From: Gammaproteobacteria bacterium
GTDB lineage: Bacteria > Pseudomonadota > Gammaproteobacteria > GCA-001735895
Reading direction: 5' to 3'
Assembly (NCBI GenBank): GCA_020354435.1
Contig: CP070646.1
Span: forward strand, 3,030,275 to 3,092,568
Length of the DNA: 62,294 bases
In this document: positions 46,533 to 62,147 of the stretch, in pieces
Layout: each line of letters begins with the position of its first letter
How positions within the stretch are numbered: position 1 is the first letter of the stretch
The notes under the pieces: model-generated
Databases searched by the model: none
The model's input: the letters and a program-made list of their open reading frames with translations, nothing else
What the model was told of the DNA's origin: nothing
Program-made: the position numbers and the translations under genes

Positions 46533-49500
46533 TTACTGATACTCGAAATAAAACTCGGATTGATCGAGGCAGCGCTGCAGCGCCAACAGGCAAGCTTCGT
46601 CCGCCTGCAGCGACCAGCCGCCATTGGTGCGTAACTGGCACTGGTATCCGTCATGACACAGGTGAAACACGACCGGCATCGCATCGCTTGAACTGTGCCG
46701 GTCGAGCAGATCGATGATCTGGTCGATCTCGTCACTGGCATGCCCGTTCAATCGGATATGCAGCGCACGTGCATTTTCGCTGCGGTAATCGTCCAGCAGT
46801 TGTACCCGATCAGCGCGCAGCTTTACGCCATTGTTAAAGTCATCGTAGGCGATCCCGCCATCGACCACCCAGACCAGGTCCTTTTGCAGAATCGATTCGA
46901 TGCGGGCCAGCAGATCGGGGAAGATGCGCACGTCCACCCGCCCGCTGCGGTCGTCCAGGGTAACGAAGGCCTCGCGCCCGCGAAAACTGTTACGCATGCG
47001 GATATCGACAACCAGGCCACAAACGCGGGCATCCTGTTCCTTCTGGCGGAATCGCTCACCGTTACCGCCGGTATCGAGACGCTCCAGCCACTGGGCCAGC
47101 GTGGTCGGCGCAATTTGCCGAATTTCTCTGTCGACCATGGCCAGCGGATGTCCCGTCAAAAACAGACCGAGGGCCTCTTTTTCCAGCATCAAGCGCTGTT
47201 TCTCGTCCCAGGCCTCGCAATCCGGCAGGTCGTGCGATTCTGCACCGGCCGGTGTAATGCTGCCGAACATATCGGTCATACCGGCGTTGAGGTTATTCTG
47301 CTGTTGCTCTGCAGCCTGCAGTGCACGGGGCAAATGCTGCATCAACGCCGCCCGGTTCGGGCTAAAGCAATCCATCGCGCCGCCCTTGATCAGCGCCTCG
47401 ATAACCTTGCGACCGGCCTTCGACGAATCGACGCGGGCACAAAAATCGTCTAGCGAGCGATATTCCTGTTCTCCGCGGCTGTCGACAATACTGTCGATCG
47501 CGCCCTGGCCGACACCCTTGATAGCACCGAGACCATAGTAAATTCGCTTTTCGTCGCCGGCGGTAAACTGATAGCCAGAGCGATTGACATCAGGCGGCCT
47601 TATGTCGAGGCGCATTTCGCGGCAGTCGTCGATCAGGGTGACAATCTTGTCAGTATTGTCCATATCCGCCGACAGCACCGCCGCCATGAATTCAGCCGGG
47701 TAATGCCGCTTCAGCCAGGCAGTCTGGTAAGACACCAGCGCATAACCGGCGGAGTGAGACTTGTTAAAGCCATAACCGGCGAACTTTTCCATCAGGTCGA
47801 AGATGTAGGTTGCGGTCGCCGCTTCGACCTGGTTGGCGACCGCGCCGTCGGTGAATATGGCGCGCTGCTTCTCCATTTCCTCGGGTTTCTTCTTGCCCAT
47901 CGCGCGTCGCAACATGTCGGCGCCACCGAGGGTGTATCCAGCCAGTACCTGCGCAATCTGCATGACCTGCTCCTGGTACAGTATGACGCCATAGGTCGGT
48001 TTCAGAATCGCCTCCAGTGCCGGGTGCGGGTACTCGACACGGGCGCGGCCGTGCTTGCGGTCGATGAAGTCGTCGACCATGCCGGATTGCAACGGACCCG
48101 GGCGAAACAGCGCCACCAGCGCGATGATGTCTTCGAAACTGTCCGGCTGCAGGCGGCGGATCAGGTCTTTCATGCCGCGAGATTCGAGCTGGAACACCGC
48201 GGTAGTCTGGTAAGCCTGCAGCAGCTCGAAGGTTTCCGCATCGTCCAGCGGAATACGTTCGATTTCGAGCCTGTCCTCGGGCGCGCGATTGCGGTTAATC
48301 GCCCGTACCGCCCAGTCGATGATGGTCAGGGTGCGCAGACCCAGGAAATCGAACTTGACCAGGCCGACCGCCTCGACGTCATCCTTGTCGTACTGCGATA
48401 CCAGCCCGGAACCACCGGCCTCGCAGTAAAGCGGAGTGAAATCAGTCAGATGACTCGGCGAAATCACGACCCCACCAGCATGTTTGCCGACGTTACGTGT
48501 CAGGCCTTCGAGCGAACGCGCCATGTCGATCAGCATGGTGACCTCTTCTTCCTGCTGGTACAGCTCGAGCAGTGCTTCCTCCTGTTCCAGCGCCTTGTCC
48601 AGCGTCATACCGACTTCGAAAGGCACCAGCTTGGCGATACGATCGACAAAACCATAGGGATGCGACATGACGCGGCCAACGTCGCGGATGACGGCCTTGG
48701 CGGCCATGCTGCCGTAAGTGATGATCTGCGATACCTGGTCGCGGCCGTAGTGATCGGCGACGTAGTCGATCACCTCGTCGCGCCGATCCATGCAAAAGTC
48801 GATATCGAAGTCCGGCATCGATACCCGTTCGGGATTGAGAAATCGTTCGAACAGCAGTTCGTAGGCCAGCGGGTCCAGGTCGGTAATATTCAGCGCGTAG
48901 GCCACCAGCGACCCCGCACCCGAGCCACGCCCGGGTCCAACCGGTATCTGGTGGTTCTTGGCCCATTCGATAAAGTCCATGACGATCAGGAAGTAACCCG
49001 GGAAACCCATCTCGATGATGACGTCGAGTTCGAGCTGCAGGCGCTCGTAATAAGGTTCACTTTCGAGCGTCTCGCCCTCGGCTAATTGTTGCCGCAAAAA
49101 CTCGAGGCGTCGCTCTAGTCCCTCTTCGGAAACGTGGCGAAAATAGGTGTCGGTGGTGTAACCATCGGGCACCGGGTATTCGGGCAGACAGGCTTCGCCG
49201 AGCGTCAAACGCAGGTTACAGCTCTCGGCAATGGCAACTGAATTCTGAATCGCCTGGGGAATGTCGCTGAACAGTTCGATCATTTCATCGGCGGATCGCA
49301 GATACTGCTGCGGCGAATACAGCTTCGGCCGACGCTCGTCTTCGAGTGTAAATCCGGTACAGATGCAGACCCGTACCTCGTGTGCCTCGAAATCAGCCTC
49401 GTCGATGAAGCGTACATCGTTGGTTGCGACCACCGGCACCTGCAATGCTTGCGACCACGCCACCGCTTGGCTGATATAGGCTTCTTCATGGGCACGACCG

Positions 49501-50018
49501 GTGCGCTGCAGTTCGAGAAAAAAGCGTGGACCGAACAAGTCGAGCCACTGCCGCAGGCAAGCTTCGGCAAGTTCGGTGTTCTGTATACGCAACGCCAGCC
49601 CGATATCGCCCTCGAGGCAGGCCGAAAGTGCAATCAGGCCATCGCTGGACTCACGCAGCCAGTCGATATCGATCGTCGCCCGGTCGGCGGCTTGTCCCTC
49701 CAGGTAGGCTCGCGATACCAGTCGTTTCAGATTCAGGTAACCCTGTTCGTTCTGGCACAAAAGCACCAGGCGACTGAGCGGCTCGGTGCGCTCGTCGTGT
49801 CTGATCCAGACATCGGCGCCGAAAATCGGCTTGACTCCCATCGCGGTCGCCGTCTTGTAATGCTTGACCACGGCAAACATGTTGTTCAGGTCGGTCAGCG
49901 CAAAAGCGCCCATACCGCGGGCGCGCACCTGTTCTACCAGCGGCTTGAGCCGGACCGTGCTGTCCTGCAGCGAATACTCGCTGTGCAGGTGCAAATGGAC
50001 GAAACGGTCAGTTCGCAT
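46533..50018 (-). CDS. dnaE: DNA polymerase III alpha subunit
   Basis: PHP HLHLHSEYS, GPGRGSGAGS, SMPDFDIDF, KFDFLGL and GFNKSH motifs. Confidence 0.98.
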   Translation of the reverse strand: MRTDRFVHLHLHSEYSLQDSTVRLKPLVEQVRARGMGAFALTDLNNMFAVVKHYKTATAMGVKPIFGADVWIRHDERTEPLSRLVLLCQNEQGYLNLKRLVSRAYLEGQAADRATIDIDWLRESSDGLIALSACLEGDIGLALRIQNTELAEACLRQWLDLFGPRFFLELQRTGRAHEEAYISQAVAWSQALQVPVVATNDVRFIDEADFEAHEVRVCICTGFTLEDERRPKLYSPQQYLRSADEMIELFSDIPQAIQNSVAIAESCNLRLTLGEACLPEYPVPDGYTTDTYFRHVSEEGLERRLEFLRQQLAEGETLESEPYYERLQLELDVIIEMGFPGYFLIVMDFIEWAKNHQIPVGPGRGSGAGSLVAYALNITDLDPLAYELLFERFLNPERVSMPDFDIDFCMDRRDEVIDYVADHYGRDQVSQIITYGSMAAKAVIRDVGRVMSHPYGFVDRIAKLVPFEVGMTLDKALEQEEALLELYQQEEEVTMLIDMARSLEGLTRNVGKHAGGVVISPSHLTDFTPLYCEAGGSGLVSQYDKDDVEAVGLVKFDFLGLRTLTIIDWAVRAINRNRAPEDRLEIERIPLDDAETFELLQAYQTTAVFQLESRGMKDLIRRLQPDSFEDIIALVALFRPGPLQSGMVDDFIDRKHGRARVEYPHPALEAILKPTYGVILYQEQVMQIAQVLAGYTLGGADMLRRAMGKKKPEEMEKQRAIFTDGAVANQVEAATATYIFDLMEKFAGYGFNKSHSAGYALVSYQTAWLKRHYPAEFMAAVLSADMDNTDKIVTLIDDCREMRLDIRPPDVNRSGYQFTAGDEKRIYYGLGAIKGVGQGAIDSIVDSRGEQEYRSLDDFCARVDSSKAGRKVIEALIKGGAMDCFSPNRAALMQHLPRALQAAEQQQNNLNAGMTDMFGSITPAGAESHDLPDCEAWDEKQRLMLEKEALGLFLTGHPLAMVDREIRQIAPTTLAQWLERLDTGGNGERFRQKEQDARVCGLVVDIRMRNSFRGREAFVTLDDRSGRVDVRIFPDLLARIESILQKDLVWVVDGGIAYDDFNNGVKLRADRVQLLDDYRSENARALHIRLNGHASDEIDQIIDLLDRHSSSDAMPVVFHLCHDGYQCQLRTNGGWSLQADEACLLALQRCLDQSEFYFEYQ

Positions 50019-50234
50019 ATCTCACCGGTTTACCTAGCGAGGGCGTCGCAAAGACGCTGCGGCGGTCTGCACAACCCGATGTGCCAAAGGCACATCGGGG
50101 GAAAGGCCCGCGTAGGCGTAGTCCAATACTACGTTGAGTGGGCCGTCGAACCCGATGTGCTAAAGCACATCGGGGTAGGCCGTCACAGTGCGCTTTGCGA
50201 CGTCCGCAGCAGGAAACCGGTGAGATATGCGAGC
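50011..50234. repeat. 224-nt structured MITE-like element with 19-bp perfect terminal IR and three internal hairpins
   Basis: TCGCATATCTCACCGGTTT (50013-50031) / AAACCGGTGAGATATGCGA (50214-50232); inner arms 50041-50070 / 50175-50205; twin hairpins 50075-50099 and 50151-50174; central hairpin 50105-50144. Confidence 0.85.
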
Positions 50235-50848
50235 TAATCATTCAGCAATTCCCTGACCGGCTTGAAGCTGCGCCGGTGTACCGCCGAAACGCCATGCTTC
50301 TTCAGCATTTCCCTATGCAACGCGGTCGGGTAACCCTTGTGTTGCGCAAAGCAGTACTCGGGAAAGCGACGATCGAGCTCCAGCATTTGCCGATCGCGAT
50401 AATTCTTGGCCAGAATCGATGCCGCAGAAATACAGGGTTCGTAAAGATCGCCCTTGACGATGGCATACAGCTGATAACCCTCGACCACGGGTAATCGGTT
50501 GCCGTCGACCAGCACTTCGTCCGGCTTCGGCTGCAGGTTCAGCAAAGCGCGTTTCATCGCCAGCAAGCTGGCCTGCAGGATATTGATGTCATCGACTTCC
50601 CGGTGGCTGGCCTCGGCGATTGCCCAGGCGCGCGCTTTTTGCTTTATTTCGGATTCGAGCGAGAGACGCTGACGCTCTGAGAGTTTCTTGGAATCGGTCA
50701 GGCCTGCGACCGGGCGGGCCTCGTCGAGTATCACCGCGGCGGCGACAACCGAGCCCGCCAGCGGACCGCGGCCGGCCTCGTCGATACCGGCAACAAGCCG
50801 GGACTTCTGAGCAGGACAGGCTTGCTTCGCAATTGGGTTTTCAAGCAT
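50234..50848 (-). CDS. rnhB: Ribonuclease HII
   Basis: [26 protein letters not shown] and HKGYPT motifs. Confidence 0.97.
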
Positions 50849-50884
50849 ATATAATGCGCCGTTTGAAATTTACCCCTGCCACTT

Positions 50885-51829
50885 ATGTCTCAATTACTCA
50901 AGGTTGCCGTTGTTGGTGCAGGTCACCTCGGCAAATGGCATGCTGACAAATACGCCGCCTGCGCCGATTGTGAACTGGTTGCAGTGGTGGATACCAACGC
51001 CGAAAACGCGGGTGCGATCGCGGACAAACATGGTGCCGAGCCGTTTGCCGATTATCGCGATATCATTTCAATGGTCGACGCGATCAGCCTGGTGGTTCCA
51101 ACCAGCCTGCATTATAAAATCGGGCGCGAGTTTCTGGAAGCGGGAATTCACTGTTTGATCGAAAAACCGGTCACCGAAACGGCCGACGAAGCCGAAACCC
51201 TGATTCGGATCGCGGCCGAACAGGGCGCCGTACTGCAGGTTGGACATATCGAACGCTTTAACAGCGTCATGCTCGGCATTACCCCGCACCTGCACCAACC
51301 GCAATTCATCGAATCCACCCGACTGGCACCCTTCACCCTGCGCGCGACCGATGTCAGCGTTATCCTCGACCTGATGATTCACGATATCGATATCATCCTG
51401 GACCTGGTCGATAGTCCGATTGCGCGGGTTTCGGCCAGCGGCATTTCGGTGCTGTCCGATACCATCGATATCGCCAATGCGCGCATCGAGTTCGAGAATC
51501 ACTGCGTAGCCAACGTCACCGCGAGCCGCATCAGTCGTAAACGCGAACGTAAGCTGCGAATTTTCCAGAAGGACGCCTATCTTTCCGCAGATTTCCAGGA
51601 AAAGATCCTGGCGATTAATCGCAAGGGTGAAACAGACAATCCCGAGGGTTACAAGGATATCTCCCACCAGGAGCTGAACTTCGAGGATAACGATGCGTTA
51701 AACCTCGAAGTGCTGGATTTCGTCAACGCGATCAAGACCGGAGGGCGCCCGCTGGTGGATGGCGCCGACGGCAAGCGTGCACTGGAAACTGCAATCGAAA
51801 TTACGTCACAGATCAAGCAATCGTTATGA
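50885..51829 (+). CDS. gnnA: Gfo/Idh/MocA oxidoreductase, probable UDP-GlcNAc 3-dehydrogenase
   Basis: VVGAGHLGKWH, IEKP, VGHIERFN and DLMIHDID motifs; followed by a DegT aminotransferase and lpxB. Confidence 0.8.
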   Translation: MSQLLKVAVVGAGHLGKWHADKYAACADCELVAVVDTNAENAGAIADKHGAEPFADYRDIISMVDAISLVVPTSLHYKIGREFLEAGIHCLIEKPVTETADEAETLIRIAAEQGAVLQVGHIERFNSVMLGITPHLHQPQFIESTRLAPFTLRATDVSVILDLMIHDIDIILDLVDSPIARVSASGISVLSDTIDIANARIEFENHCVANVTASRISRKRERKLRIFQKDAYLSADFQEKILAINRKGETDNPEGYKDISHQELNFEDNDALNLEVLDFVNAIKTGGRPLVDGADGKRALETAIEITSQIKQSL

Positions 51830-52917
51830 ATATACCCATGGTTGACCTGAAGGGTCAGTACGAAACTATCAAAACCGAAATCGACAGCGCCATCCTGCAG
51901 GCGCTCGGCGAAACCCGTTTCATCCTCGGCCCCAACGTGCAGGCTTTCGATCAGGAAGCGGCCGAGTATCTCGGCGTGCAGCATGCGATCAGTTGCGCCA
52001 ACGGCACCGACGCATTACATCTCGCCCTGCTCGCCAGCGGGATTCAACCGGGAGACGAGGTAATAACCAGCGCATTCACGTTCATCGCCACCGCCGAAGC
52101 CATTAGCTTTATCGGTGCAACGCCTGTTTTTGTCGATATTCAGCCGCATAGCTTCAATATCGATCCCGACCAGATCAGGGCCGCCATCACCGACAAAACC
52201 AGGGCCATACTGCCGGTTCACCTGTTTGGCCAGCCTGCCGATATGAAGGAAATTCTCGCACTGGCGGAAGAATTCGATTTGCTGGTCATCGAAGACTGCG
52301 CGCAATCCTTCGGCAGTCGCTATGCCGGCAGTGCTACCGGGAATATTGGATTGGCGGGGGCGTTCAGCTTTTTTCCGAGCAAGAACCTCGGCTGCTACGG
52401 CGATGGCGGCATGGTGACCACCAATGATGATGATACGGCGACCCAGATCAAAATGTTGCGTAACCATGGCAGCAGCCAGCAGTACCATCACGACGTTATC
52501 GGGGTTAATAGTCGCCTCGACGAACTGCAGGCCGTTATCCTGCGCATAAAACTCAGACATATCGACGAGTACAATCGTAAACGCCTCGATGTTGCCAGGG
52601 CCTATAACGACAGACTGGCCGGCAGCCGCTTCGAAGCGCCAGCGATCCCTGATGATCGCGATCACGTGTTCCACCAGTACACGCTGTTGTGCGACGGACG
52701 CGACGCGGTGCGCGAAGCGGTACTCGCCAAAGGCGTCGCCTGTGCGATCTACTACCCGATTCCGCTGCATATGCAAAAAGCTTTTGCCGATACCGAGCAG
52801 CCCCGGCTGCCGATCACCGAAGCCACCGCGAAACGTTGCCTGTCCTTGCCGATATTTCCGGAAATGACCGGGCAACAAATCGACACCGTGTGCGAGGCCG
52901 TATTGAGCGCGGCATGA
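51826..52917 (+). CDS. gnnB: DegT/DnrJ/EryC1/StrS aminotransferase, probable UDP-3-keto-GlcNAc transaminase
   Basis: ANGTDAL, EDCAQ, SFFPSKNLG (PLP Lys) and NSRLDELQA motifs; overlaps gnnA and lpxB. Confidence 0.8.
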   Translation: MNIPMVDLKGQYETIKTEIDSAILQALGETRFILGPNVQAFDQEAAEYLGVQHAISCANGTDALHLALLASGIQPGDEVITSAFTFIATAEAISFIGATPVFVDIQPHSFNIDPDQIRAAITDKTRAILPVHLFGQPADMKEILALAEEFDLLVIEDCAQSFGSRYAGSATGNIGLAGAFSFFPSKNLGCYGDGGMVTTNDDDTATQIKMLRNHGSSQQYHHDVIGVNSRLDELQAVILRIKLRHIDEYNRKRLDVARAYNDRLAGSRFEAPAIPDDRDHVFHQYTLLCDGRDAVREAVLAKGVACAIYYPIPLHMQKAFADTEQPRLPITEATAKRCLSLPIFPEMTGQQIDTVCEAVLSAA

Positions 52918-54053
52918 GCCAGGCTCATGTCATGATTCTTGCGGGGGAAGCCTCCGGCGACGCACACGCGGCCGAGCTGGCCGAGCAGCTCAGGCTGTTG
53001 CAGCCGCAAATCAAGCTAACCGGCATGGGCAGCCAGGAAATGCAAAATGCCGGCGTAGAGGTGTTCTTCGATTCCAGGATTATCGCGGTCGTTGGACTAA
53101 TCGAGGTGCTGCGACACTGGGGTGATATTAAAAAGGCGATGGCCATCGTCAAACAGCGCCTGAGGCAAACACGCCCCGACCTGCTGATCCTCGTCGATTA
53201 TCCTGAATTCAACCTGAAGATGGCGCGCTATGCGGGCGAGCTCGGTATCAAGGTGCTGTTTTACATCAGTCCGCAGGTCTGGGCCTGGCGGCCAAAGCGC
53301 ATTCACAAGATTGGAAGCCTGATCGATCATATGGCGGTCATCTTCAAGTTCGAACAGCAGTACTACGAAAATGCCGGTATTCCGGTCAGTTTCGTTGGCC
53401 ATCCGCTGGTCGACAAGGTCAGGGTCGGCGAGCAGCGTGACAACCTGCGTGCCGCTCTCGGCATCGCTTCCACGGAGCGCGTCGTCGGCCTGTTTCCGGG
53501 CAGCCGTCACAGCGAAGTTTCCCGGCTGTTACCGCTGATGTTCGAAACCGCACGGTTGATGCGCGAACGCGATCCTGCAATCAGGTTTCTACTGCTGGTC
53601 GCACCGACCCTCGACTTTGACCATATTTCCCGGCAGTGTGCGGACAAGGGACTCGATATTATCGTTACCAGCGGAGATACCTATGAAACCATTGTTTGCT
53701 GTGACGTGATCGCGACCTGCTCCGGTACCGTCACGCTGGAAATAGGACTCCTCGGCGTGCCCATGTGCATCGTCTACAAGGTATCACCGCTGTCCTACGC
53801 AATCCTGAAACGTTTGGTCACGATTCCGCATATCGGGCTGGCCAACATCGTTGCCGGCGATAGCATAGTGCGCGAATTTCTGCAGTCCGATGCAAATCCC
53901 GAGGCGGTGAGCGCGGAGTTGTTTGAACTGCTCGATAACGCCGAGTATCGTGCGCGGGTTAAAACGGGACTCGAGAACGTGCGCGAAAACCTCGGAGAGG
54001 GTGGCGGCTCACGCAATATGGCACAATTGGTTTTATCCTTGATCGAAAAATAA
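52914..54053 (+). CDS. lpxB: Lipid A disaccharide synthase
   Basis: AGEASGD, VDYPEFN, SPQVWAWR, VGHPL, PGSR and LANIVAG motifs; ATG overlaps the gnnB stop. Confidence 0.96.
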   Translation: MSQAHVMILAGEASGDAHAAELAEQLRLLQPQIKLTGMGSQEMQNAGVEVFFDSRIIAVVGLIEVLRHWGDIKKAMAIVKQRLRQTRPDLLILVDYPEFNLKMARYAGELGIKVLFYISPQVWAWRPKRIHKIGSLIDHMAVIFKFEQQYYENAGIPVSFVGHPLVDKVRVGEQRDNLRAALGIASTERVVGLFPGSRHSEVSRLLPLMFETARLMRERDPAIRFLLLVAPTLDFDHISRQCADKGLDIIVTSGDTYETIVCCDVIATCSGTVTLEIGLLGVPMCIVYKVSPLSYAILKRLVTIPHIGLANIVAGDSIVREFLQSDANPEAVSAELFELLDNAEYRARVKTGLENVRENLGEGGGSRNMAQLVLSLIEK

Positions 54054-54069
54054 CCAGCGGGAGGGCGAG

Positions 54070-55176
54070 ATGACAAATCGAGGACATTCAGAAGGCATAA
54101 CCATGAGCGGTGGCGGCCTCTACTCGCTTGCAACCCTGGGCGCAAAACACGTCATCGACGCTGCCACGCCAATGGTGCTGGATGCCATTGCCAGTATGCC
54201 ACAGGAATCGATCGCCAACGGATTCACGCTGTCCGACATGGGTACCGCCGACGCCGGCACTTCACTGACCATGGTCGGCAGTGTGATCGACGCGATTCGC
54301 CAGCGCGCGCCGCAAGCACCGATCTCGATCGTCTACTCCGACCAGCCGCGTAACGACTTCAACGCGTTAATCGCCAACGTTTACGGACTCGGGCCGTTCG
54401 AGACTTACCTCGACAAGCACGAAAATCTTTTTCCGCTGGTTTCGGGGACAACCTTCTACAAGCAGATATTACCCGCGGGCACTCTCGACGTCGGCTTCTC
54501 GGCAACCGCGATGCACTGGATGAGTCGCAAGGTTTGCAACATCTCGAACCATGTGCAGGCGGTCGGCGCAGAGGGTGAGGAACTGGATAGATTTCGTGCA
54601 CAGGCGCGGCAGGACTGGCGCCAGATCCTGCTGCATCGGGCGGTCGAACTGAAACCCGGCGGCAAGCTGGTACTGATCAACTTCGGCTGCGATGAACAGG
54701 GGCGCTACCTGGGCAACACCGGTGGCGTCAACATGTTCGACACCTTTAACCGGATCTGGCAATCCTTTCTCGAGCAGGGTCGAATCGAGCGACATGAATA
54801 CGAGAACATGACCCTGCCGCAGTACTACAATACCGTCGAGGAGTTCAGTGCCCCGCTCACCGATACCTCAGATGCCGTATACCAGGCTGGTCTGCGCCTG
54901 GAGCATATCGACACGCGCATCGTCAAATGCCCGTTTGCAGAATCCTTTGCAGAACACGGCGACGCGGAGAAATTTGCCGAGGAATACATCCCGACGATAC
55001 GCACCTGGAACGAGAGCATCTATTTCAACGGACTGTCGGAGCAACGCCCGCTCGAGGAACGCCGGGAAATCATCGAAGACTACTACGGAACCTACCGCGA
55101 CCTGGTGCGCGACAATCCCGAAGGCCACGGCATGGACTACGTCCACGCCTACATGGTCATCTCCAAACAGGCGTAA
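54070..55176 (+). CDS. SAM-dependent carboxyl methyltransferase (SABATH / Methyltransf_7 family)
   Basis: SDMGTADAGTS, SDQPRNDFN, GTTFYKQILP and SATAMHWMS correspond to the SABATH motifs DLGCSSG, NDLP.NDFN, GSFY.RLFP and S...HWLS. Confidence 0.85.
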   Translation: MTNRGHSEGITMSGGGLYSLATLGAKHVIDAATPMVLDAIASMPQESIANGFTLSDMGTADAGTSLTMVGSVIDAIRQRAPQAPISIVYSDQPRNDFNALIANVYGLGPFETYLDKHENLFPLVSGTTFYKQILPAGTLDVGFSATAMHWMSRKVCNISNHVQAVGAEGEELDRFRAQARQDWRQILLHRAVELKPGGKLVLINFGCDEQGRYLGNTGGVNMFDTFNRIWQSFLEQGRIERHEYENMTLPQYYNTVEEFSAPLTDTSDAVYQAGLRLEHIDTRIVKCPFAESFAEHGDAEKFAEEYIPTIRTWNESIYFNGLSEQRPLEERREIIEDYYGTYRDLVRDNPEGHGMDYVHAYMVISKQA

Positions 55177-55189
55177 TTTTCCCGCGTCC

Positions 55190-55371
55190 CTTCGAAGGGG
55201 TCAGAGCCCGGTTTCGGAACTTTGATTCGTCGGATTAAACAGCGATAGCGAAACCGGAGTCCGACCCCGGCCTTCCCAAAGTTGGGAAGGTTGGGGTCAG
55301 ACTCCAATTTTCGCGATAATCTGTCCTATAGCCTCGGTAGTACCGAAAATTGGGCTCTGACCCCCTCGAAG
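55190..55371. repeat. Tandem REP-like palindrome doublet (GGGGTCAGA...CTGACCCC)
   Basis: Unit 1 55197-55268, unit 2 55293-55364, spacer hairpin CCTTCCC/GGGAAGG, outer IR CTTCGA/TCGAAG; lies between convergent genes. Confidence 0.85.
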
Positions 55372-55401: not shown

Positions 55402-56439
55402 TCAGGTTTCGACCGGGTAGCCGGCCTTTTCCCAGTCGGGCATGCCGCTGTGGCTGATGCAGGTGATGTGATTGAGGCCCTGGAAGTTGAGATTGGTGGT
55501 AGCCGTCTGCGCACGCCGGCCCGAACGGCAATAAAGGTAAATCTGATCGTATTGACGCAGCTCATCGACATGCCCGCTCTCGGTGCCCATCGGAATATTG
55601 CGACTGCCCGGCACATGACCTTTGGCAAATTCTTCAGGCGACCGGTTATCCATGATCAACGTGTTTGCCGGCAGATCCTGCCAGACTTCGTGCAGGTCAT
55701 TCATATCGAAATCGCGCAACAGGTAGCGGTTGGCGTCAAAATCGATACCAACGCTCATATTGGCCGGCACCGCCTCGTTGATGCGTTTCGGCATATCCAG
55801 GTTCAGATTATTCATCAAATCGATGAATTGCTGGCGCGATCGATGGCCGGCGAGGCGGGGATTCCAGGCTTTTTCCTCGCCGATCGTCGACGAGGTCCGG
55901 CCGTTGTAATCGTGTGCCGGGTAGACAAGGGTGTCGTCGCTAAGCACGAACAGCTTTTGCGTGATGCTGTCGTATAATTGCCCGGGGTCGCCAAACTGGA
56001 AATCGGTGCGCCCGCAACCCCGAATCAACAGGGTATCACCGCTGAACAGCATACCGTCGCAAAAATAGCAGGTACAGCCATTGGTATGGCCCGGCGTCGA
56101 GATCGCGCTAATCTGGTAATGCCCGAGAGGGATGCTGTCACCATCCTTTAGCGATATATCGATCGCCTCGATGCCGGAAGTCTCACCGTATACCAGTTTG
56201 GCACCGGTGCTTTCACGGATCTTGCCGGCCGCGGTGATATGGTCGGCATGGGCGTGGGTTTCGATGGCATAGAGTAATTCCACGCCAAGTTCGTTGATGA
56301 TCTGCATATCGCGATCGTAGGTTTCGAGTACCGAATCGATGATCGCACCCTCGCCGGTGTCGCTATCGATCAACAGATAGGTATAGGTGCAGCTTTCGCG
56401 ATCGAACAGTTGTTTTACCCTCAGATGTGGCGTGGTCAT
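55402..56439 (-). CDS. Persulfide dioxygenase (ETHE1-like MBL) - rhodanese fusion
   Basis: SCTYTYL, ETHAHADH, TPGHT, GCGRTDF and YPAHDY motifs; C-terminal rhodanese YCRSGRR; GGAG RBS before ATG 56439. Confidence 0.9.
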   Translation of the reverse strand: MTTPHLRVKQLFDRESCTYTYLLIDSDTGEGAIIDSVLETYDRDMQIINELGVELLYAIETHAHADHITAAGKIRESTGAKLVYGETSGIEAIDISLKDGDSIPLGHYQISAISTPGHTNGCTCYFCDGMLFSGDTLLIRGCGRTDFQFGDPGQLYDSITQKLFVLSDDTLVYPAHDYNGRTSSTIGEEKAWNPRLAGHRSRQQFIDLMNNLNLDMPKRINEAVPANMSVGIDFDANRYLLRDFDMNDLHEVWQDLPANTLIMDNRSPEEFAKGHVPGSRNIPMGTESGHVDELRQYDQIYLYCRSGRRAQTATTNLNFQGLNHITCISHSGMPDWEKAGYPVET

Positions 56440-56541
56440 CGAGACAGGCTCCAAAAATGACAAATTCAAGTGTAATTTTTACGTTTGACGAAGGCAATCG
56501 TCGGTGGCAATTTGGCGATCTTCGGATATTATCTTTTCGCA

Positions 56542-57156
56542 ATGGATTACGAAACTCTCTTAAACCAGCTCAACCTGCAATCGGAACTCGTTGCGATGGT
56601 AATCGTCGTACTGGCGCTGGCATTGATCGTCTTTGTCAATCGCAAGCGAATTCAAATGCGCTGGGGCGAATGGCGCACCCAGCGATGCCTGAAACGAATC
56701 GGCAGCGAGCAGATTCGCGACCTCGTCTGCGCCGACGGCCTGGATGGTTTCTACCGCATCGACAGGCTAGCACTGACACCTCATGCAATACTGCTGATCA
56801 GTTACAAACCCTATGGCGGCAATATTTATTGCGCCGAACGCATTTCGGAATGGACCCAGGTAATCGGGAAAAAGAGTTACAAGTTCGAAAACCCCCTGTT
56901 CGAGCTGGATAACCAGCTGGCCGCCCTCAGGCTGTTAATCGGCAGTGCGCCGCTCGAGGGATACCTGTTTTTTAACCGCAGCGCATTGTTTCCCAAGGGG
57001 CACCCCGATTCGGTGCTGAATCCGGATAACATTCCGCAACAATTCATCAGCAAAAATCGCGAACCGCCCAAACCTGAAATCCAGGCTGCCTGGGATATTC
57101 TCAAATCACAGAAAAGTAACGCCTCGACCGCGGGGCAGATCGGCGTTAAAACTTGA
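56542..57156 (+). CDS. Membrane-anchored NERD (nuclease-related domain) protein
   Basis: N-terminal TM; ID.L...IS-YK.Y.G.I....WTQ...K.F.NP pattern; start re-assigned to ATG 56542. Confidence 0.75.
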   Translation: MDYETLLNQLNLQSELVAMVIVVLALALIVFVNRKRIQMRWGEWRTQRCLKRIGSEQIRDLVCADGLDGFYRIDRLALTPHAILLISYKPYGGNIYCAERISEWTQVIGKKSYKFENPLFELDNQLAALRLLIGSAPLEGYLFFNRSALFPKGHPDSVLNPDNIPQQFISKNREPPKPEIQAAWDILKSQKSNASTAGQIGVKT

Positions 57157-57271: not shown

Positions 57272-58363
57272 ATGAAACGTCGTGATGTACTCAAAGGTGG
57301 CGTCGCCGCCGCACTCGCAACCGGAGCAGGCGCAGTATCGGCACCCGCTATCGCGCAGGGCCGTCAAGAAATTACCATGGTATCAACCTGGCCGCGAGAC
57401 TTTCCGGGCCTCGGCACCGGCGCCCAGCGCTTTGCCGAGCGCCTCACCGCCATGACCGATGGTCGTATCAAGGTTAATTATTTTGCCGCCGGCGAACGCG
57501 TCAAGGCGTTCGACTCATTCGACGAGGTCGCCTCCGGTAACGCACAAATGTACCACGCCGCCGATTACTACTGGAAAGGCAAGCATCCCGGCTGGGCCTA
57601 TTTCACGGGGGTTCCTTTCGGCATGACCTACACCGAGGTCAACGCCTGGACTCAGTTCGGCGGTGGACAGGAGCTTTGGGATGAACTGGCTGCTGGTTAC
57701 GGCCTCAAATGTATCCCCTGCGGTAACACCGGCGTCCAGATGGGTGGCTGGTTCCGCAAGGAAATGCGTTCGGCCGCCGATTTCAAAGGCCTGAAAATGC
57801 GCATCCCGGGTCTCGGTGGTGACGTAATCGCCAAGCTCGGTGCCTCCTCGGTAACCCTGCCTGGCGGACAAATCTACGAAAACCTGGTATCCGGCGCTAT
57901 CGATGCAACCGAGTGGGTCGGTCCGTGGAACGACAGCTTCCTGAAATTCTACGAAGCAGCCAAGTTCTACTACTACCCGGGTATGCACGAGCCGGGCTCG
58001 ATGCTGGCCCTGGGCATGAACAAGAAGTGGTGGGATAGCCAGAGCAAGTCCGACCAGGCCATTATCATGGCAGCCGCCGAAACCGAAAACTCGATCATGA
58101 TGTCGGAGTACAACGCCAAGAACGGTGCAGCGCTGCAAAGCCTGCTGTCGGATCAGGGCGTCAAGCTGCGCCAGTTCAGTGACGACACCTACGATGCGTT
58201 CGGTGACGCCGCGGCAGAAGTGTTCGAGGAAGTTCGCCAGCACAGCCCGCTGGCCAAGAAAATCCACGACAGCTTCAAGTCATCGCGTGACGAAGTTGGC
58301 GCCTGGGTCAAGATATCCGACCAGGCTTACGTGGCGCAACGCAACCGCGTACTGGGGCTTTAA
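57272..58363 (+). CDS. dctP: TRAP transporter solute-binding protein (TakP-like, Tat signal)
   Basis: KRRDVL Tat motif, STWPRDFPG, GNTGVQMGGWF, KMRIPGLGG and EWVGP motifs. Confidence 0.92.
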   Translation: MKRRDVLKGGVAAALATGAGAVSAPAIAQGRQEITMVSTWPRDFPGLGTGAQRFAERLTAMTDGRIKVNYFAAGERVKAFDSFDEVASGNAQMYHAADYYWKGKHPGWAYFTGVPFGMTYTEVNAWTQFGGGQELWDELAAGYGLKCIPCGNTGVQMGGWFRKEMRSAADFKGLKMRIPGLGGDVIAKLGASSVTLPGGQIYENLVSGAIDATEWVGPWNDSFLKFYEAAKFYYYPGMHEPGSMLALGMNKKWWDSQSKSDQAIIMAAAETENSIMMSEYNAKNGAALQSLLSDQGVKLRQFSDDTYDAFGDAAAEVFEEVRQHSPLAKKIHDSFKSSRDEVGAWVKISDQAYVAQRNRVLGL

Positions 58364-58384
58364 TACCCGCGTCGTAACCCAGGG

Positions 58385-58414
58385 AAAACGGAGTCTTCGG
58401 ACTCCGTTTTCTTT
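58385..58414 (+). terminator. Intra-operon terminator/stabilising hairpin between dctP and dctQ
   Basis: AAAACGGAGTC-ttcg-GACTCCGTTTT-CTTT with a cUUCGg tetraloop. Confidence 0.85.
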
Positions 58415-58435
58415 CGTCCGTGTCATGTCTAGCCG

Positions 58436-59482
58436 ATGATGAAGAATAATCTGCCACTGCTAACGCGTGCATTTTCCTACGCGATGGTGAGCGCGGTATT
58501 TCTTTATTTACTGAACAATTATCTGGTCTACTGGCAGGGCATGCCCGGAACCTACGGACTGTCGTTGCATTACGGCTGGTTCGGACTCGAAGTCGATGAA
58601 CTGGCCGAGGGCAAGGTCGGCCAGGCCTGGTTCCAGCTAATATTTTATCTGCTGGTCATTTTCGCCAGCATCGGTTACGTAATCAAAACCCCGATGCGAA
58701 AGCTCGAGGACGACAGCGTCCGCTTCGCCCGGGTATCCGCCTATATCGTCCGCCTGTCTTTCTGGTCGGTGCTGCTGATCGGTATCGTCGATATGCTGAT
58801 TTCGTTACTGCGGATCGAAAACCTGCTCGAACACATAATCGGCGAATGGCTTACACAACAGCTGGGGCGTTCTATATTTCGCGGCACCTGGGTGCACTAC
58901 CCGTTAGTCGGCATCTCCATGATCATCGCCGCCAGGTGGCGCGATATCAGTTTTACCTGGCTTGCGCTGATGTGCGTGCTGGCCGAATTCCTGATCGTGG
59001 TTTCGCGTTTCGTATTTTCCTACGAACAGGCCTACATGGGTGACCTGGTGCGTTTCTGGTACGCGGCGTTATTCCTGTTTGCCAGCGCGCATACGCTGGT
59101 CGAGGAAGGCCACGTGCGCGTCGACGTACTCTATACCGGGTTCAGGCGACGCAAGAAGGCCCTGTACGATTCAATCGGCTGCCTGATCCTGGGCATACCT
59201 ATTTGCTGGGTCATCCTGATGCAGGGCATGGGCGGACGCGGCAACAGCATCAACAGCCCGCTGCTCTCCTTCGAGGTATCGCAAAGCGGCTACGGTATGT
59301 ACGTCAAGTACATCATGGCGGCTTTTCTGATCGTGTTCGCGGTGACGATGATAGTCCAGTTCGTCAGCTACCTGCTGTACAACGTCGGTCAGCTGATCGA
59401 CCACGGCGAGCACGAGGAGCGCTTGACTTATCACCAGCTGATCTCGGGTGATAAAACCGTGGCCCCGGGGGGCGGCCACTAG
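58436..59482 (+). CDS. dctQ: TRAP small permease DctQ with N-terminal membrane extension
   Basis: C-terminal half has the HVRVD DctQ motif; 348 aa with about 4 extra hydrophobic segments in front. Confidence 0.85.
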   Translation: MMKNNLPLLTRAFSYAMVSAVFLYLLNNYLVYWQGMPGTYGLSLHYGWFGLEVDELAEGKVGQAWFQLIFYLLVIFASIGYVIKTPMRKLEDDSVRFARVSAYIVRLSFWSVLLIGIVDMLISLLRIENLLEHIIGEWLTQQLGRSIFRGTWVHYPLVGISMIIAARWRDISFTWLALMCVLAEFLIVVSRFVFSYEQAYMGDLVRFWYAALFLFASAHTLVEEGHVRVDVLYTGFRRRKKALYDSIGCLILGIPICWVILMQGMGGRGNSINSPLLSFEVSQSGYGMYVKYIMAAFLIVFAVTMIVQFVSYLLYNVGQLIDHGEHEERLTYHQLISGDKTVAPGGGH

Positions 59483-59483
59483 C

Positions 59484-62147
59484 ATGGAATTATATTTTCT
59501 CGTCCTGCTGATCGCGCTGATGGTGTTCGCCCTGACGGCGGGCTTCCCGGTCGCGTTCGCGCTGCCGGGATCGGCGGTACTGGCGATCGCGATCGCCGCC
59601 CTCTGCGGCTGGCTGTTCGAAGGTAATCCGGACGCCTATTTCGCGCTCGGCGGCCCCAACCAGTGGCTTAGCGCCGGGGTCACTAACTACCGAAGTCTCT
59701 ACTGGGTGGCGGAACGCGACACCCTGATCGCGATACCGCTGTTCATTTTCATGGGCATCATGCTGCAGCGCTCGCGCATCGCCGAAGACCTGCTGGTGGC
59801 GATGGCGCAGTTGTTCGGACCGATTCCCGGAGGCCTCGGCATTTCAGTGGTTTTCGTCGGCGCCTTACTCGCCGCGACCACCGGCATTGTCGGCGCCACG
59901 GTCATCGCGATGGGCCTGATCTCGCTGCCGGCGATGCTGCGCAATAATTATTCGAAGTCGCTCGCCTGCGGCACGATTTGCGCGTCGGGCACGCTGGGGC
60001 AAATCATTCCGCCGTCGATCGTGCTGATTATCCTCGCCGACCAGTTATCCAACGCAGCCGACCAGGCCGCGACCACGCGTAAGGCCGAATACAAAGAGGC
60101 TACCGGCGAGTTCTCCATGCCGGGCGATTTCGACGTGGTTACCGCGAGCGCCGGCGACATGTTCATGGGCGCCTTCATACCAGGCCTTATCCTGGTCGGC
60201 ATCTATATGCTCTACATCCTGATTTCTGCCCTGATCAAGCCGGCTAATGCGCCGCCGGTACCGTTCGAGGGCGAATACGACCGCAAGTTCGTGCTGCGGG
60301 TACTGCTCGCGCTGGTGCCGCCGTTAACGCTGATATTCATCGTGCTCGGCTCGATCATCCTCGGTGTCGCCACGGTAAACCAGGCCGGCGCTATCGGTGC
60401 CATCGGCGCGATGATCATGGGCAGTTACCGCCTGATGGAAGGCAAAAAACGCGCCTACTACCCCGCCATTCTGACGATTGGTTCGGTCGTCGCCATTGTC
60501 ATATTGCTGAGTCTTTTTGACCTGAATATCAAAAACATCAAAAGCGGCTACGACGCGTTCGGCATCGGCCTCGCCTGCATCGCTACAGCGGTGCTGGTTT
60601 ATGCGATCTCGTGGGCCGCGTGGCGCGCCTACAAGATCGACAATACGCTGCACAGCGTTATGATGGATACCGCCAAAACCACGTCGATGGTATTCATCAT
60701 CCTGCTCGGCGCGGCGATGCTGACGTCGGCGTTTCGCGGTTTCGGCGGAGAAGAACTGGTCAAGGAGCACCTGACCGCCCTGCCCGGCGGTTTCTGGACC
60801 CAGTTCATCGTCGTCATGGCGGTTATCTTTTTTCTCGGATTTTTTCTCGACTTTCTCGAGATAGCCGTGGTCGTGGTGCCGATCGTGGCGCCGATTCTGC
60901 TGGCCGACCCGAGCGCCAACGTCAGCGCGGTCTGGTTCGGCGTCATGGTTGGCCTCAACATCCAGACATCGTTTCTAACACCACCGTTCGGCTTTTCTTT
61001 ATTCTATTTACGCGGGGTTGCGCCCAAGGATGTGCGAACGCTACAGATCTACAAGGGAGCAGCCGCGTTTATCGTTCTGCAGCTCCTCGGACTGGCCATT
61101 GCCGGCGCATTTCCGAGCCTGGTCAATTACCTGCCGAACAAAACCCATTTGGTCTCCGAAACCGCGCCGCCGCCGAGCAACCCGAAGCTGCAGGAATGCC
61201 TGGAGGAATACCAGTTCGTCGTTTACGATCGGGACAAGGAGGTAATCCAGGCGGCAGTCGAACGTATTCAGACGGCAAACATCGCCTACTTGCCCGACGA
61301 ATACCAGGAACGCCTGAACCAAAGCTACAAACAGGCTGGCGCAACCTTTGCACTAATCGAAGACGTTCGCTCCGCGGAAATAAAGCTCGACAACTACTCG
61401 CAGGATTATCGCCCGCTGCACATCAAGGTGCGCCAGATACAAAAAGACGTTCGCAGGCTGGAAAAGGATATCGAGGAACTCGACGAAGAACGTCAGCGGG
61501 TAAGATTCGAGGAACCTGTCGATCAAAGCAGGCTCGATCGGATCCAGGCAAGAATCAGCGGCCTCGAAACCGAGCGGGATGCGCTGGCGGCGACCGTCCC
61601 GGAAAACTGGAAGGACGCGCGTGCCGAGTTCGAGCAGCTGGCCAAAGCCGAGACTACCGCGCGACGTAAATATCGCCAGAACGTCGACGAAAGCTATGAC
61701 ATGATCAGGACCATGCGCAAGATGATTGCCGAATCCGATGCACTCGCTGCGCTGCAGGAGCGTTACGACCCGTTAATCGAGCTGATCCGCAAGAAAACTG
61801 CAAAGGAAAGTACCGAGGCTATCAAGGCACTCGAGTCAGAACTCGACGCGTTAACCGAGACACACCGTATCAAGTCGAAGCTGTCGCGCGCCAGGCGCGC
61901 CCTGCGTGGCGATAATCCCGACCAGCAAAAGGCGATCGAGGAGGTCATGCAAAGTGCGGAAATCCTGCAAAACGAGATCGTCTGGCACCAGCGTGCCGCC
62001 GACGATCTGCGCGCCGATCTCGACGAGTACCACGAGGCGGTCAAGCTGACCATCGGCATGCGCATGCAGGAGCGCCTGACCGGCGATCAGGCCGAGGCCA
62101 TCGCCGAATGCAAGTCAGTGCATAAAGATCTGACCCTGTTCTTCTAG
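59484..62147 (+). CDS. dctM: TRAP large permease DctM with ~336-aa soluble C-terminal extension
   Basis: LIAIPLFIFMG, ASGTLGQIIPPS and LTPPFGFSLFYL motifs; the DctM core ends at about aa 551 of 887. Confidence 0.92.
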   Translation: MELYFLVLLIALMVFALTAGFPVAFALPGSAVLAIAIAALCGWLFEGNPDAYFALGGPNQWLSAGVTNYRSLYWVAERDTLIAIPLFIFMGIMLQRSRIAEDLLVAMAQLFGPIPGGLGISVVFVGALLAATTGIVGATVIAMGLISLPAMLRNNYSKSLACGTICASGTLGQIIPPSIVLIILADQLSNAADQAATTRKAEYKEATGEFSMPGDFDVVTASAGDMFMGAFIPGLILVGIYMLYILISALIKPANAPPVPFEGEYDRKFVLRVLLALVPPLTLIFIVLGSIILGVATVNQAGAIGAIGAMIMGSYRLMEGKKRAYYPAILTIGSVVAIVILLSLFDLNIKNIKSGYDAFGIGLACIATAVLVYAISWAAWRAYKIDNTLHSVMMDTAKTTSMVFIILLGAAMLTSAFRGFGGEELVKEHLTALPGGFWTQFIVVMAVIFFLGFFLDFLEIAVVVVPIVAPILLADPSANVSAVWFGVMVGLNIQTSFLTPPFGFSLFYLRGVAPKDVRTLQIYKGAAAFIVLQLLGLAIAGAFPSLVNYLPNKTHLVSETAPPPSNPKLQECLEEYQFVVYDRDKEVIQAAVERIQTANIAYLPDEYQERLNQSYKQAGATFALIEDVRSAEIKLDNYSQDYRPLHIKVRQIQKDVRRLEKDIEELDEERQRVRFEEPVDQSRLDRIQARISGLETERDALAATVPENWKDARAEFEQLAKAETTARRKYRQNVDESYDMIRTMRKMIAESDALAALQERYDPLIELIRKKTAKESTEAIKALESELDALTETHRIKSKLSRARRALRGDNPDQQKAIEEVMQSAEILQNEIVWHQRAADDLRADLDEYHEAVKLTIGMRMQERLTGDQAEAIAECKSVHKDLTLFF

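What the first reader, a model, noticed from the sequence alone, without database searches (positions are those of the whole stretch)
54070..55176. Plant-type SABATH methyltransferase directly behind lpxB
All four SABATH motifs are recognisable. The family is known mainly from plants (salicylate, jasmonate, IAA and xanthine methylation), and bacterial members are poorly characterised. The gene starts 16 nt after lpxB, so it is probably co-transcribed with the lipid A genes. Speculative options are carboxyl methylation of an envelope precursor (for example Kdo or an acyl chain) or production of a volatile methyl ester.
Basis: partly seen in the sequence, partly recalled or inferred. Interest (0 to 1): 0.55.

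Follow-up and report, generated by a model that had tools for sequence, protein, structure and literature searches.

The report
Methyltransferase tied to keto-acid importer
The gene behind lpxB is a genuine SABATH-type methyltransferase, but its conserved partner in marine bacteria is a keto-acid uptake transporter, not the lipid A genes, so it most likely methylates a small imported acid.

Summary
ORF 54070-55176 encodes a 368-aa PF03492 methyltransferase (101.9 bits). Its model has a SABATH fold, closest to mycobacterial fatty-acid O-methyltransferase. It starts 16 nt after lpxB and is followed by a strong hairpin.

The lipid A reading does not hold.
- lpxB adjacency arose once, in a single GTDB genus (26 of 67 tree rows, one change).
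- In other lineages (SAR324, Arenicellales, sponge symbionts, Granulosicoccaceae) the ortholog sits beside a TakP-type dctPQM TRAP transporter, in three different gene orders.
- The window has the same transporter 2 kb downstream. Its binding protein keeps all six pyruvate/Na+ ligands of TakP.
- In two near-complete genus members (G157, G210), the methyltransferase and the cognate TRAP have decayed together while gnnA-gnnB-lpxB stay intact.
- Three Acidimicrobiales MAGs carry the ortholog but gave no LpxB match.

Best reading: an optional accessory of a 2-oxo-acid importer that methylates a small imported carboxylate. The substrate is unknown. The Trp of the carboxylate clamp is kept; the Gln is replaced by an invariant Ala.

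This scan reached the same transporter link earlier on another genome (e1-2231559). I found no paper on this clade. Interest is moderate.

The parts
50826..50855 (+). Sigma-70-like promoter candidate upstream of gnnA (TTCGCA-18-TATAAT); possible start of the gnnA-gnnB-lpxB-methyltransferase transcript
   Evidence: Consensus scan, 10 of 12 matches. This is a pattern match only.
50885..51829 (+). GnnA-like Gfo/Idh/MocA oxidoreductase (candidate UDP-GlcNAc 3-dehydrogenase)
   Evidence: PF01408/PF22725. NF040723 scores 205.7 bits, below its equivalog cut-off.
51826..52917 (+). GnnB-like DegT/DnrJ/EryC1 aminotransferase; overlaps gnnA by 4 nt
   Evidence: PF01041, 415 bits.
52932..54053 (+). lpxB, lipid-A-disaccharide synthase. 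The listed 454-aa ORF starting at GTG 52689 overlaps gnnB; homologs align only from about 52929-52932.
   Evidence: PF02684 matches residues 82-436 of the long ORF; TIGR00215; tblastn to relatives.
54058..54063 (+). Shine-Dalgarno sequence GGGAGG of the methyltransferase gene
   Evidence: Read directly from the sequence.
54070..55176 (+). SABATH-fold SAM-dependent methyltransferase ('SAB'), 368 aa, soluble
   Evidence: PF03492 101.9 bits; AlphaFold2 pLDDT 87.9; Foldseek FAMT TM 0.78-0.80; no hydrophobic segment.
55256..55313 (+). 22-bp hairpin followed by AATTTTCG; likely terminator closing the operon, shared with the convergent MBL-rhodanese gene
   Evidence: RNA fold of 55170-55330 gives -75 kcal/mol, z -5.9. 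The arms are unique in the window and in the genome, so this is not a REP family.
55402..56469 (-). Metallo-beta-lactamase-fold plus rhodanese protein (persulfide dioxygenase-like). It lies between the methyltransferase and the TRAP genes only in this genus.
   Evidence: PF00753 + PF00581; gene orders.
56485..57156 (+). NERD-domain protein, also a genus-specific insert
   Evidence: PF08378; gene orders.
57272..58363 (+). DctP, TakP-type solute-binding protein of the TRAP transporter; predicted 2-oxo-acid/cation binder
   Evidence: PF03480. PDB matches: 5cm6, TakP 2hzk/2hzl, 7ug8 (alpha-ketovalerate + Ca) at E 1e-72 to 1e-75 and TM 0.83-0.93. TakP ligands Y100, Q156, R177, E214, W215 and E240 are conserved here and invariant in 20 orthologs.
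58436..59482 (+). DctQ-like small membrane subunit with a 180-aa N-terminal extension that has no Pfam match
   Evidence: PF04290 matches residues 185-311; the N-terminal part has no family.
59448..62147 (+). DctM large membrane subunit (residues 1-560) plus a 340-aa hydrophilic helical tail
   Evidence: PF06808; hydropathy profile.

Best explanation
The gene encodes a cytoplasmic SAM-dependent small-molecule methyltransferase with the SABATH fold. Its functional partner is the TakP-type TRAP transporter (dctPQM, 57272-62147), not lpxB. The proposed mechanism has three steps. First, the periplasmic DctP captures a small 2-oxo acid (or a close 2-hydroxy analogue) together with a cation, and DctQM imports it; this step is inferred from the conserved TakP ligand set. 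Second, the methyltransferase holds the acid's carboxylate against the conserved Trp150/His149 pair next to SAM and transfers the methyl group, giving a neutral methyl ester; this is inferred by analogy with SAMT, IAMT and FAMT. Third, the ester either leaves the cell (relief of acid overload, or an infochemical) or is a masked intermediate; this step is speculative. Adjacency to lpxB is a single juxtaposition in one genus. It probably places the gene on the gnnA-gnnB-lpxB transcript in this genome without tying it to lipid A chemistry.
For: (1) Family and fold are established. (2) Outside the window's genus, 23 of 41 orthologs in the tree lie directly next to cognate dctPQM. The arrangements are PQM>SAB (gaps 0-115 nt in 13 of 14 loci, 299 nt in the fourteenth), SAB>PQM and divergent. 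The linked DctP proteins are 62-82% identical to the window's. (3) In 3 of 5 genomes where the two are not adjacent, a 74-75% identical DctP lies elsewhere, in one case about 9 kb away. (4) On the methyltransferase tree, lpxB adjacency needs one change. It is nested among TRAP-linked branches. (5) Joint decay within the genus: G157 (99% complete) has intact gnnA-gnnB-lpxB, MBL-rhodanese and NERD genes. Its methyltransferase is a stop-interrupted fragment lacking residues ~188-318, and dctP, dctQ and most of dctM are deleted. G210 (97% complete) keeps about 45 codons of the methyltransferase and has only a 50%-identical TRAP paralog. (6) My tally of 60 genus genomes: 34 have methyltransferase and cognate DctP, 12 have DctP only, 10 have neither or remnants, and 4 have methyltransferase only. 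Those last four are all 71-91% complete assemblies. (7) DctP keeps all six TakP pyruvate/Na+ ligands. Its nearest structures bind 2-oxo acids or lactate with a cation. (8) Where TRAP is absent, neighbours are Liv-type ABC importers and class I, class III and DegT aminotransferases. Lrp plus alanine dehydrogenase genes lie beside three TRAP-linked loci (L058, L071, L079). All of these fit 2-oxo-acid/amino-acid metabolism. (9) All eight residues aligned to the SAMT pocket are invariant across 28 orthologs from several phyla, which implies one conserved substrate.
Against: No substrate has been shown. The Gln of the canonical SABATH carboxylate clamp (SAMT Gln25; PMC10193983) is an invariant Ala here. 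O-methylation of a carboxylate is therefore not assured, and the family also contains N-methyltransferases. About 40% of non-genus loci lack a nearby TRAP, and two checked genomes (G003, G005) have no cognate DctP. In a sample of 200 families of the class, about 8 genomes have the cognate DctP without the methyltransferase, so the enzyme is dispensable for transport. No physiological role for methyl esters of 2-oxo acids is known to me, and none turned up in the literature search. Genomes of one genus are not independent samples.
Confidence: 0.5

Rival explanations
1. One reading: the enzyme methylates a lipid A or LPS precursor (Kdo carboxylate, an acyl chain or a 3-hydroxyacyl intermediate) as part of the gnnA-gnnB-lpxB operon.
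For: A 16-18-nt spacing to lpxB is typical across the genus loci, with probable co-transcription. The closest solved structure, FAMT, was crystallised with 3-hydroxydecanoate, a lipid-A-like acyl unit.
Against: The adjacency has a single origin in one genus. Only 2 of 200 other families of the class have the gene, although lpxB is general in the class. The gene is absent or decayed in 22 of 60 genus members, with lpxB confirmed intact in G157, G210, G215 and G222. Orthologs with the same invariant pocket occur in three Acidimicrobiales MAGs that gave no LpxB match.
Confidence: 0.03
2. It is a FAMT-like fatty-acid O-methyltransferase making methyl esters of medium-chain or 3-hydroxy fatty acids, unrelated to the transporter.
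For: FAMT is the best sequence and fold match (E 2.5e-26; TM 0.78-0.80). The aligned pocket positions are largely hydrophobic or aromatic (F205, M222, F223, Y252).
Against: Identity to FAMT is only 25-26%. FAMT Gln154, the residue mutated in 5f2o, is His149 here. The repeated linkage to, and joint loss with, a small-2-oxo-acid TRAP is unexplained by this reading. No fatty-acid metabolism genes recur as neighbours.
Confidence: 0.1
3. It is an N- or S-methyltransferase acting on an imported 2-substituted carboxylate, for example a pyridine-2-carboxylate giving a homarine-type betaine, or a thiol acid. It would then be a biosynthetic enzyme for an osmolyte or signal.
For: The SABATH family includes N-methyltransferases (xanthine and theobromine enzymes among the fold matches). 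The carboxylate-clamp Gln is lost. Hosts include symbionts of worms, sponges and bryozoans. From memory only, unverified here: one TakP-family structure (4yic) was deposited with picolinate bound.
Against: The clamp Trp is retained, which argues for a carboxylate sitting at the methyl-acceptor site. No direct evidence exists. The PDB titles shown were truncated, so the ligand could not be checked. The literature search found nothing.
Confidence: 0.1
4. The adjacency to the TRAP genes is phylogenetic inertia of a mobile block and carries no functional meaning. The enzyme would then have an unrelated housekeeping or detoxifying role.
For: The TRAP system often occurs without the enzyme. The enzyme is patchily distributed and appears horizontally spread.
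Against: Three different gene orders keep the adjacency across distant lineages. There are two separate joint decays within one genus. Spacers in PQM>SAB operons are very short.
Confidence: 0.15

Closest known systems
Mycobacterium marinum fatty acid O-methyltransferase (FAMT; PDB 5f2k, 5f2n, 5f2o)
   Same: Bacterial, soluble, about 368 aa, SABATH fold (TM 0.78-0.80). SAM-binding blocks are shared, and so is the Trp that follows the residue mutated in 5f2o.
   Different: Identity is 25-26%. FAMT Gln154 is His149 here. The genomic context is a keto-acid TRAP transporter, not lipid metabolism. The substrate is unknown.
Plant SABATH carboxyl methyltransferases (SAMT 1m6e, IAMT 3b5i, LAMT 6c8r)
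   Same: Same Pfam family PF03492 and same fold. The Trp151 equivalent (W150) and the SAM-contact blocks are conserved.
   Different: Identity is 15-20%. The Gln25 clamp residue is replaced by an invariant Ala25. Pocket residues differ (Y147T, M150H, L210F, I225M, W226F). The protein is more distant from plant enzymes than from FAMT, so it is not 'plant-type' in the sense of a recent plant origin.
TakPQM, the 2-oxo-acid TRAP transporter of Rhodobacter sphaeroides (TakP, PDB 2hzk/2hzl; PMC1839085), and the Synechococcus keto-acid receptor 7ug8
   Same: The window's DctP is 37-41% identical to these, with TM 0.83-0.93. It keeps all six pyruvate/Na+ ligands.
   Different: No methyltransferase partner is mentioned in the TakP paper read here or in my literature searches. 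The window's DctM carries a 340-aa helical tail and its DctQ a 180-aa extension.
E. coli trans-aconitate methyltransferase Tam (from general knowledge)
   Same: A precedent for a SAM-dependent enzyme that esterifies a small metabolic carboxylate, possibly to blunt its toxicity.
   Different: Tam is a different class I methyltransferase family, not PF03492, and is not transporter-linked. The analogy is functional only and was not tested here.

Membership tests
SABATH / Pfam PF03492 (Methyltransf_7) | Profile match above the curated gathering score over most of the domain | tested here: met
   101.9 bits against a cut-off of 29.8; profile positions 12-331 of 335.
SABATH / Pfam PF03492 (Methyltransf_7) | SABATH fold (class I SAM core plus helical cap) | tested here: met
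   Model pLDDT 87.9. The top 28 Foldseek ranks are all SABATH or FAMT entries, TM 0.65-0.81.
SABATH / Pfam PF03492 (Methyltransf_7) | SAM-binding sequence blocks (DxGxxxGxxS, DxPxNDFN, sFY) | tested here: met
   D56-S65, D91-N98 and F129-Y130 align to IAMT, LAMT and SAMT. The core residues are invariant in 28 orthologs.
SABATH carboxyl methyltransferases | Carboxylate-clamp Trp (SAMT Trp151) | tested here: met
   W150 aligns to SAMT W151 and is invariant. The role of the clamp is taken from PMC10193983, which prints it as 'Trp115'.
SABATH carboxyl methyltransferases | Carboxylate-clamp Gln (SAMT Gln25) | tested here: not met
   SAMT Q25 and LAMT Q38 align to Ala25, which is invariant together with Gly24.
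SABATH carboxyl methyltransferases | SAM-dependent methyl ester formation on a small acid | not testable with these tools
   Needs an enzyme assay.
FAMT-type fatty acid O-methyltransferase | Orthology-level similarity and the Gln154 site | tested here: not met
   25-26% identity. Gln154 aligns to His149. The two are related but not orthologous.
Lipid A biosynthesis or modification gene set | Linkage to lpx genes conserved across independent lineages | tested here: not met
   lpxB adjacency needs one change on the tree and is confined to one genus.
Lipid A biosynthesis or modification gene set | Occurrence restricted to, and retained with, lipid A producers | tested here: not met
   No LpxB match in three Acidimicrobiales MAGs that carry the ortholog; their completeness is unknown. 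The gene is lost or decayed while lpxB stays intact in G157, G210, G215 and G222.
TakP-type 2-oxo-acid TRAP transporter (the neighbouring genes) | TakP ligand set Tyr100, Gln156, Arg177, Glu214, Trp215, Glu240, and the TakP fold | tested here: met
   All six residues are conserved at the same numbering and invariant in 20 orthologs. TM is 0.83-0.93 to 5cm6, 7ug8 and 2hzk/2hzl.

The most novel reading that the evidence does not exclude
The TRAP transporter and the methyltransferase form a horizontally spread two-part 'import-and-methylate' module. It would convert a scavenged marine 2-oxo acid or 2-substituted acid into a previously unrecognised methylated metabolite: a volatile keto-acid methyl ester, or an N-methyl betaine of the homarine type. 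Such a product could serve as an osmolyte, an infochemical or a relief valve in SAR324 and in worm and sponge symbionts.
Probability: 0.2. Interest if true: 0.65.

Novelty: new variant of a known kind. Interest (0 to 1): 0.38.

Why it matters
The lipid A idea can be set aside, so annotation of this operon should not infer a modified lipid A from this gene. What remains is an uncharacterised and strongly conserved bacterial branch of the SABATH methyltransferases (57-87% identity across phyla, with an invariant pocket). It travels with a high-affinity 2-oxo-acid importer in abundant marine lineages: SAR324, Arenicellales, sponge-associated Poriferihabitaceae, Granulosicoccaceae and relatives of the gutless-worm Gamma3 symbiont. 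If the enzyme esterifies imported keto acids, that adds a new fate for a labile class of marine dissolved organic carbon. It would also be a new bacterial source of volatile esters, and a small, soluble, substrate-specific carboxyl methyltransferase is of biocatalytic interest. The pairing is directly testable, because both the binding protein and the enzyme are soluble and can be screened against one ligand panel.

Tried and rejected
- NCBIfam has no model for the protein.
- The ESM Atlas returned only generically named PF03492 clusters.
- Literature searches found no paper on this clade or on a TRAP-SABATH pairing. The queries covered SABATH with bacteria and TRAP, Methyltransf_7/PF03492, homarine and picolinate, the PDB codes, and methyl 2-oxo-acid esters.
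- The FAMT and SAMT primary papers are not held. Pocket residue roles therefore rest on PMC10193983, on alignment, and partly on memory.
- No riboswitch or other Rfam element lies near the gene in the window or in 11 TRAP-linked loci.
- The hairpin after the gene is not a repeated REP-type element.
- The MBL-rhodanese neighbour suggested thiol or sulfur chemistry, but that gene is a genus-specific insert and not part of the conserved module.
- folE, 5'-3' exonuclease and DUF1318 genes recur upstream in some lineages. They look like lineage synteny, as an earlier agent of this scan also concluded.
- The SahR-like/MetF pair overlapping the gene in Arenicellales hints at SAM-cycle co-regulation, but it occurs in only two loci.
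- Distant paralogs (41-49% identity) sit in other contexts, for example a small biosynthetic cluster in L096. I did not use them to infer this protein's function.

Full report
**1. What is at the coordinates**

The + strand ORF 54070-55176 (ATG start, 368 aa) begins 16 nt after the lpxB stop and has a GGGAGG ribosome-binding site. It matches Pfam PF03492 (Methyltransf_7, the SABATH family) at 101.9 bits, against a cut-off of 29.8, over almost the whole profile. NCBIfam has no model for it.

An AlphaFold2 model built on 28 orthologs has pLDDT 87.9 and pTM 0.88. Foldseek places it closest to Mycobacterium marinum fatty-acid O-methyltransferase (5f2n/5f2k, TM 0.78-0.80, 25-26% identity). Plant SABATH O- and N-methyltransferases follow. 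By sequence it is also nearer to FAMT (E 2.5e-26) than to any plant structure (E 5e-12 or weaker).

The protein has no hydrophobic segment and is single-copy in the 3.72-Mb genome. The qualifier is that the protein belongs to a large microbial branch of the family: 1618 clusters at 90% identity and 1991 representatives at 50% identity.

**2. The local transcription unit**

- The upstream genes are a GnnA-like oxidoreductase, a GnnB-like DegT aminotransferase (4-nt overlap with gnnA) and lpxB.
- The 454-aa 'lpxB' ORF starting at 52689 overlaps gnnB. Homologs align only from about 52932.
- A promoter-like site lies before gnnA.
- After the methyltransferase comes a 22-bp hairpin with a short U run. 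Folding 55170-55330 gives -75 kcal/mol, z -5.9. The hairpin is unique in the genome.
- Co-transcription of gnnA-gnnB-lpxB-methyltransferase is thus likely in this genome. This is inferred from the layout and has not been shown experimentally.

**3. Is the lpxB linkage conserved?**

I fetched 80 loci encoding relatives of 57-87% identity from one genome per species. I mapped the window's neighbours onto them and clustered all their ORFs.

- lpxB lies directly upstream in 26 loci. All of these are in the 70-87% identity band and show the same block: dnaE, rnhB, gnnA, gnnB, lpxB, methyltransferase, MBL-rhodanese, NERD, dctPQM.
- Genome searches show this band is the window's own GTDB genus.
- On a maximum-likelihood tree of 67 methyltransferases, lpxB adjacency needs a single change (SH-aLRT 91). 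It is nested among branches that are TRAP-linked.
- In a sample of 200 other families of the class, only one other family had an intact copy; the second match was a broken copy in the window's own genus.

**4. The conserved partner**

Outside the genus, the recurrent neighbour is a TRAP transporter. Its DctP is 62-82% identical to the window's DctP at 57272-58363.

- Twenty-three of 41 non-genus tree rows are directly adjacent to dctPQM.
- Three arrangements occur: PQM>methyltransferase (spacers 0-115 nt in 13 of 14 loci), methyltransferase>PQM, and divergent.
- The lineages include SAR324, Arenicellales, Poriferihabitaceae, Granulosicoccaceae and Thiolinea.
- Of five genomes without adjacency, three have the cognate DctP elsewhere, one of them about 9 kb away.
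- In the window's genus the same transporter follows 2 kb downstream, after two genus-specific inserted genes.

**5. Natural loss experiments inside the genus**

| Genome | Completeness | Methyltransferase | Cognate dctPQM | gnnA-gnnB-lpxB |
|---|---|---|---|---|
| G157 | 99% | Stop-interrupted fragment lacking residues ~188-318 | Deleted except the last 160 codons of dctM | Intact |
| G210 | 97% | About 45 codons remain | Replaced by a 50%-identical, inverted TRAP paralog | Intact |
| G222 | 74% | Absent | Present | lpxB intact |
| G215 | 92% | Absent; an island of about 17 kb occupies the site | Present | lpxB intact |

I tallied 60 genus genomes by hand:

- 34 have both the methyltransferase and the cognate DctP.
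- 12 have the DctP only.
- 10 have neither, or only remnants.
- 4 have the methyltransferase only. All four are fragmented assemblies, 71-91% complete.

These genomes are related and so are not independent samples. The pattern is still consistent: the enzyme is an optional add-on to the transporter, and its retention does not track lpxB. In addition, three Acidimicrobiales MAGs that encode an ortholog gave no LpxB match (their completeness is unknown).

**6. What the transporter carries**

The window's DctP matches TakP of Rhodobacter sphaeroides, 5cm6, 4pet and the Synechococcus receptor 7ug8, which is bound to alpha-ketovalerate and Ca. E-values are 1e-72 to 1e-75. Its model (pLDDT 87.3) superposes on these at TM 0.83-0.93.

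The TakP paper names six residues that hold sodium pyruvate: Tyr100, Gln156, Arg177, Glu214, Trp215 and Glu240 (PMC1839085). All six are present at the same numbering in the window's protein and are invariant in 20 orthologs. A 2-oxo acid, or a close 2-hydroxy analogue, bound with a cation is therefore the likely cargo. TakP itself prefers C4-C6 2-oxo acids.

**7. Other contexts agree with this theme**

Where TRAP is absent, the methyltransferase lies in or next to:

- Liv-type ABC importers (L051, L055, L081);
- a class III aminotransferase (L040, L036, L069);
- a class I/II aminotransferase together with a 2OG oxygenase (L066);
- DegT aminotransferases (L062, L069).

In three TRAP-linked loci (L058, L071, L079), Lrp and alanine dehydrogenase genes lie just downstream. 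In two Arenicellales loci the gene overlaps a SahR-like regulator followed by metF (L038, L039).

**8. The active site**

By alignment to SAMT, the eight mapped pocket positions are as follows. All are invariant in the 28 orthologs.

| SAMT residue | Residue here |
|---|---|
| Q25 | A25 |
| Y147 | T146 |
| M150 | H149 |
| W151 | W150 |
| L210 | F205 |
| I225 | M222 |
| W226 | F223 |
| Y255 | Y252 |

SABATH carboxyl methyltransferases are described as using Gln25 and a Trp to position the carboxylate. The source is PMC10193983, which prints the Trp as 'Trp115'; from the SAMT alignment I take it to be Trp151. Here the Trp is kept and the Gln is lost.

His149 occupies the position of FAMT Gln154, the residue mutated in the 5f2o structure with 3-hydroxydecanoate. 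It could contact a 2-oxo or 2-hydroxy group, but that is inference. The invariant pocket across phyla implies one conserved substrate. The lost Gln keeps N- or S-methylation open as alternatives.

**9. Verdict**

- The lipid A interpretation is not supported.
- The best reading is a transporter-linked small-acid methyltransferase. I give about 0.8 to the transporter link and about 0.35-0.4 to a 2-oxo-acid carboxyl as the methyl acceptor.
- I found no paper on this clade.
- An earlier agent of this scan reached the same transporter link from another genome (e1-2231559). I re-derived it here independently and added three things: the single-origin tree, the joint-decay cases, and the ligand-residue and pocket maps.

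Noticed in passing
window 61125-62144 and 58436-58975: DctM ends in a 340-aa hydrophilic, charged, helical tail and DctQ starts with a 180-aa extension. Neither has a Pfam match, and both are conserved in the linked TRAP systems (median M length 886 aa). Another agent of this scan has already reported the tail (e1-5227086).
   Followed up: partly
window 55402-57156: An MBL-fold plus rhodanese gene (minus strand) and a NERD-domain gene sit between the methyltransferase and dctP only in this genus. In G210 only the rhodanese part of the first gene remains.
   Followed up: partly
L090:1433-12000 and L091:1-8544 (G215 contig C23): In one genus member the methyltransferase site between lpxB and the MBL-rhodanese gene holds an island of about 17 kb. 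It encodes Usp, a flavin reductase, a ketopantoate-reductase-like protein, a formyltransferase, a family III CoA-transferase, a TPP enzyme, GntR and TctA. This looks like an oxalate/formyl-CoA-type catabolic set.
   Followed up: partly
L038:7092-9064 and L039 (Arenicellales): The methyltransferase stop overlaps the start of an ArsR-HTH plus methyltransferase-domain protein (SahR-like), which is followed directly by metF. This may indicate co-regulation with the SAM cycle.
   Followed up: no
G259:C23:83837-84937: The genus ortholog is matched in four consecutive pieces that overlap at their ends on one contig, which looks like frameshifts. It is either a decaying gene or assembly errors. The cognate dctP is intact in that genome.
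   Followed up: no
L096:1-10483: A 41%-identical paralog lies in a different cluster: aldehyde dehydrogenase, class III aminotransferase, MFS transporter, D-Ala-D-Ala-ligase-like ATP-grasp enzyme, two further methyltransferases and an EamA exporter. It looks like a small-molecule biosynthetic set.
   Followed up: no
window 52689-52931: The longest lpxB ORF (GTG 52689) overlaps gnnB by 229 nt. This extension is probably not translated; the real start is about 52929-52932.
   Followed up: partly
window 46533-50848: dnaE and rnhB lie divergently upstream of gnnA, so this cluster does not have the usual gammaproteobacterial lpxB-rnhB-dnaE order.
   Followed up: no
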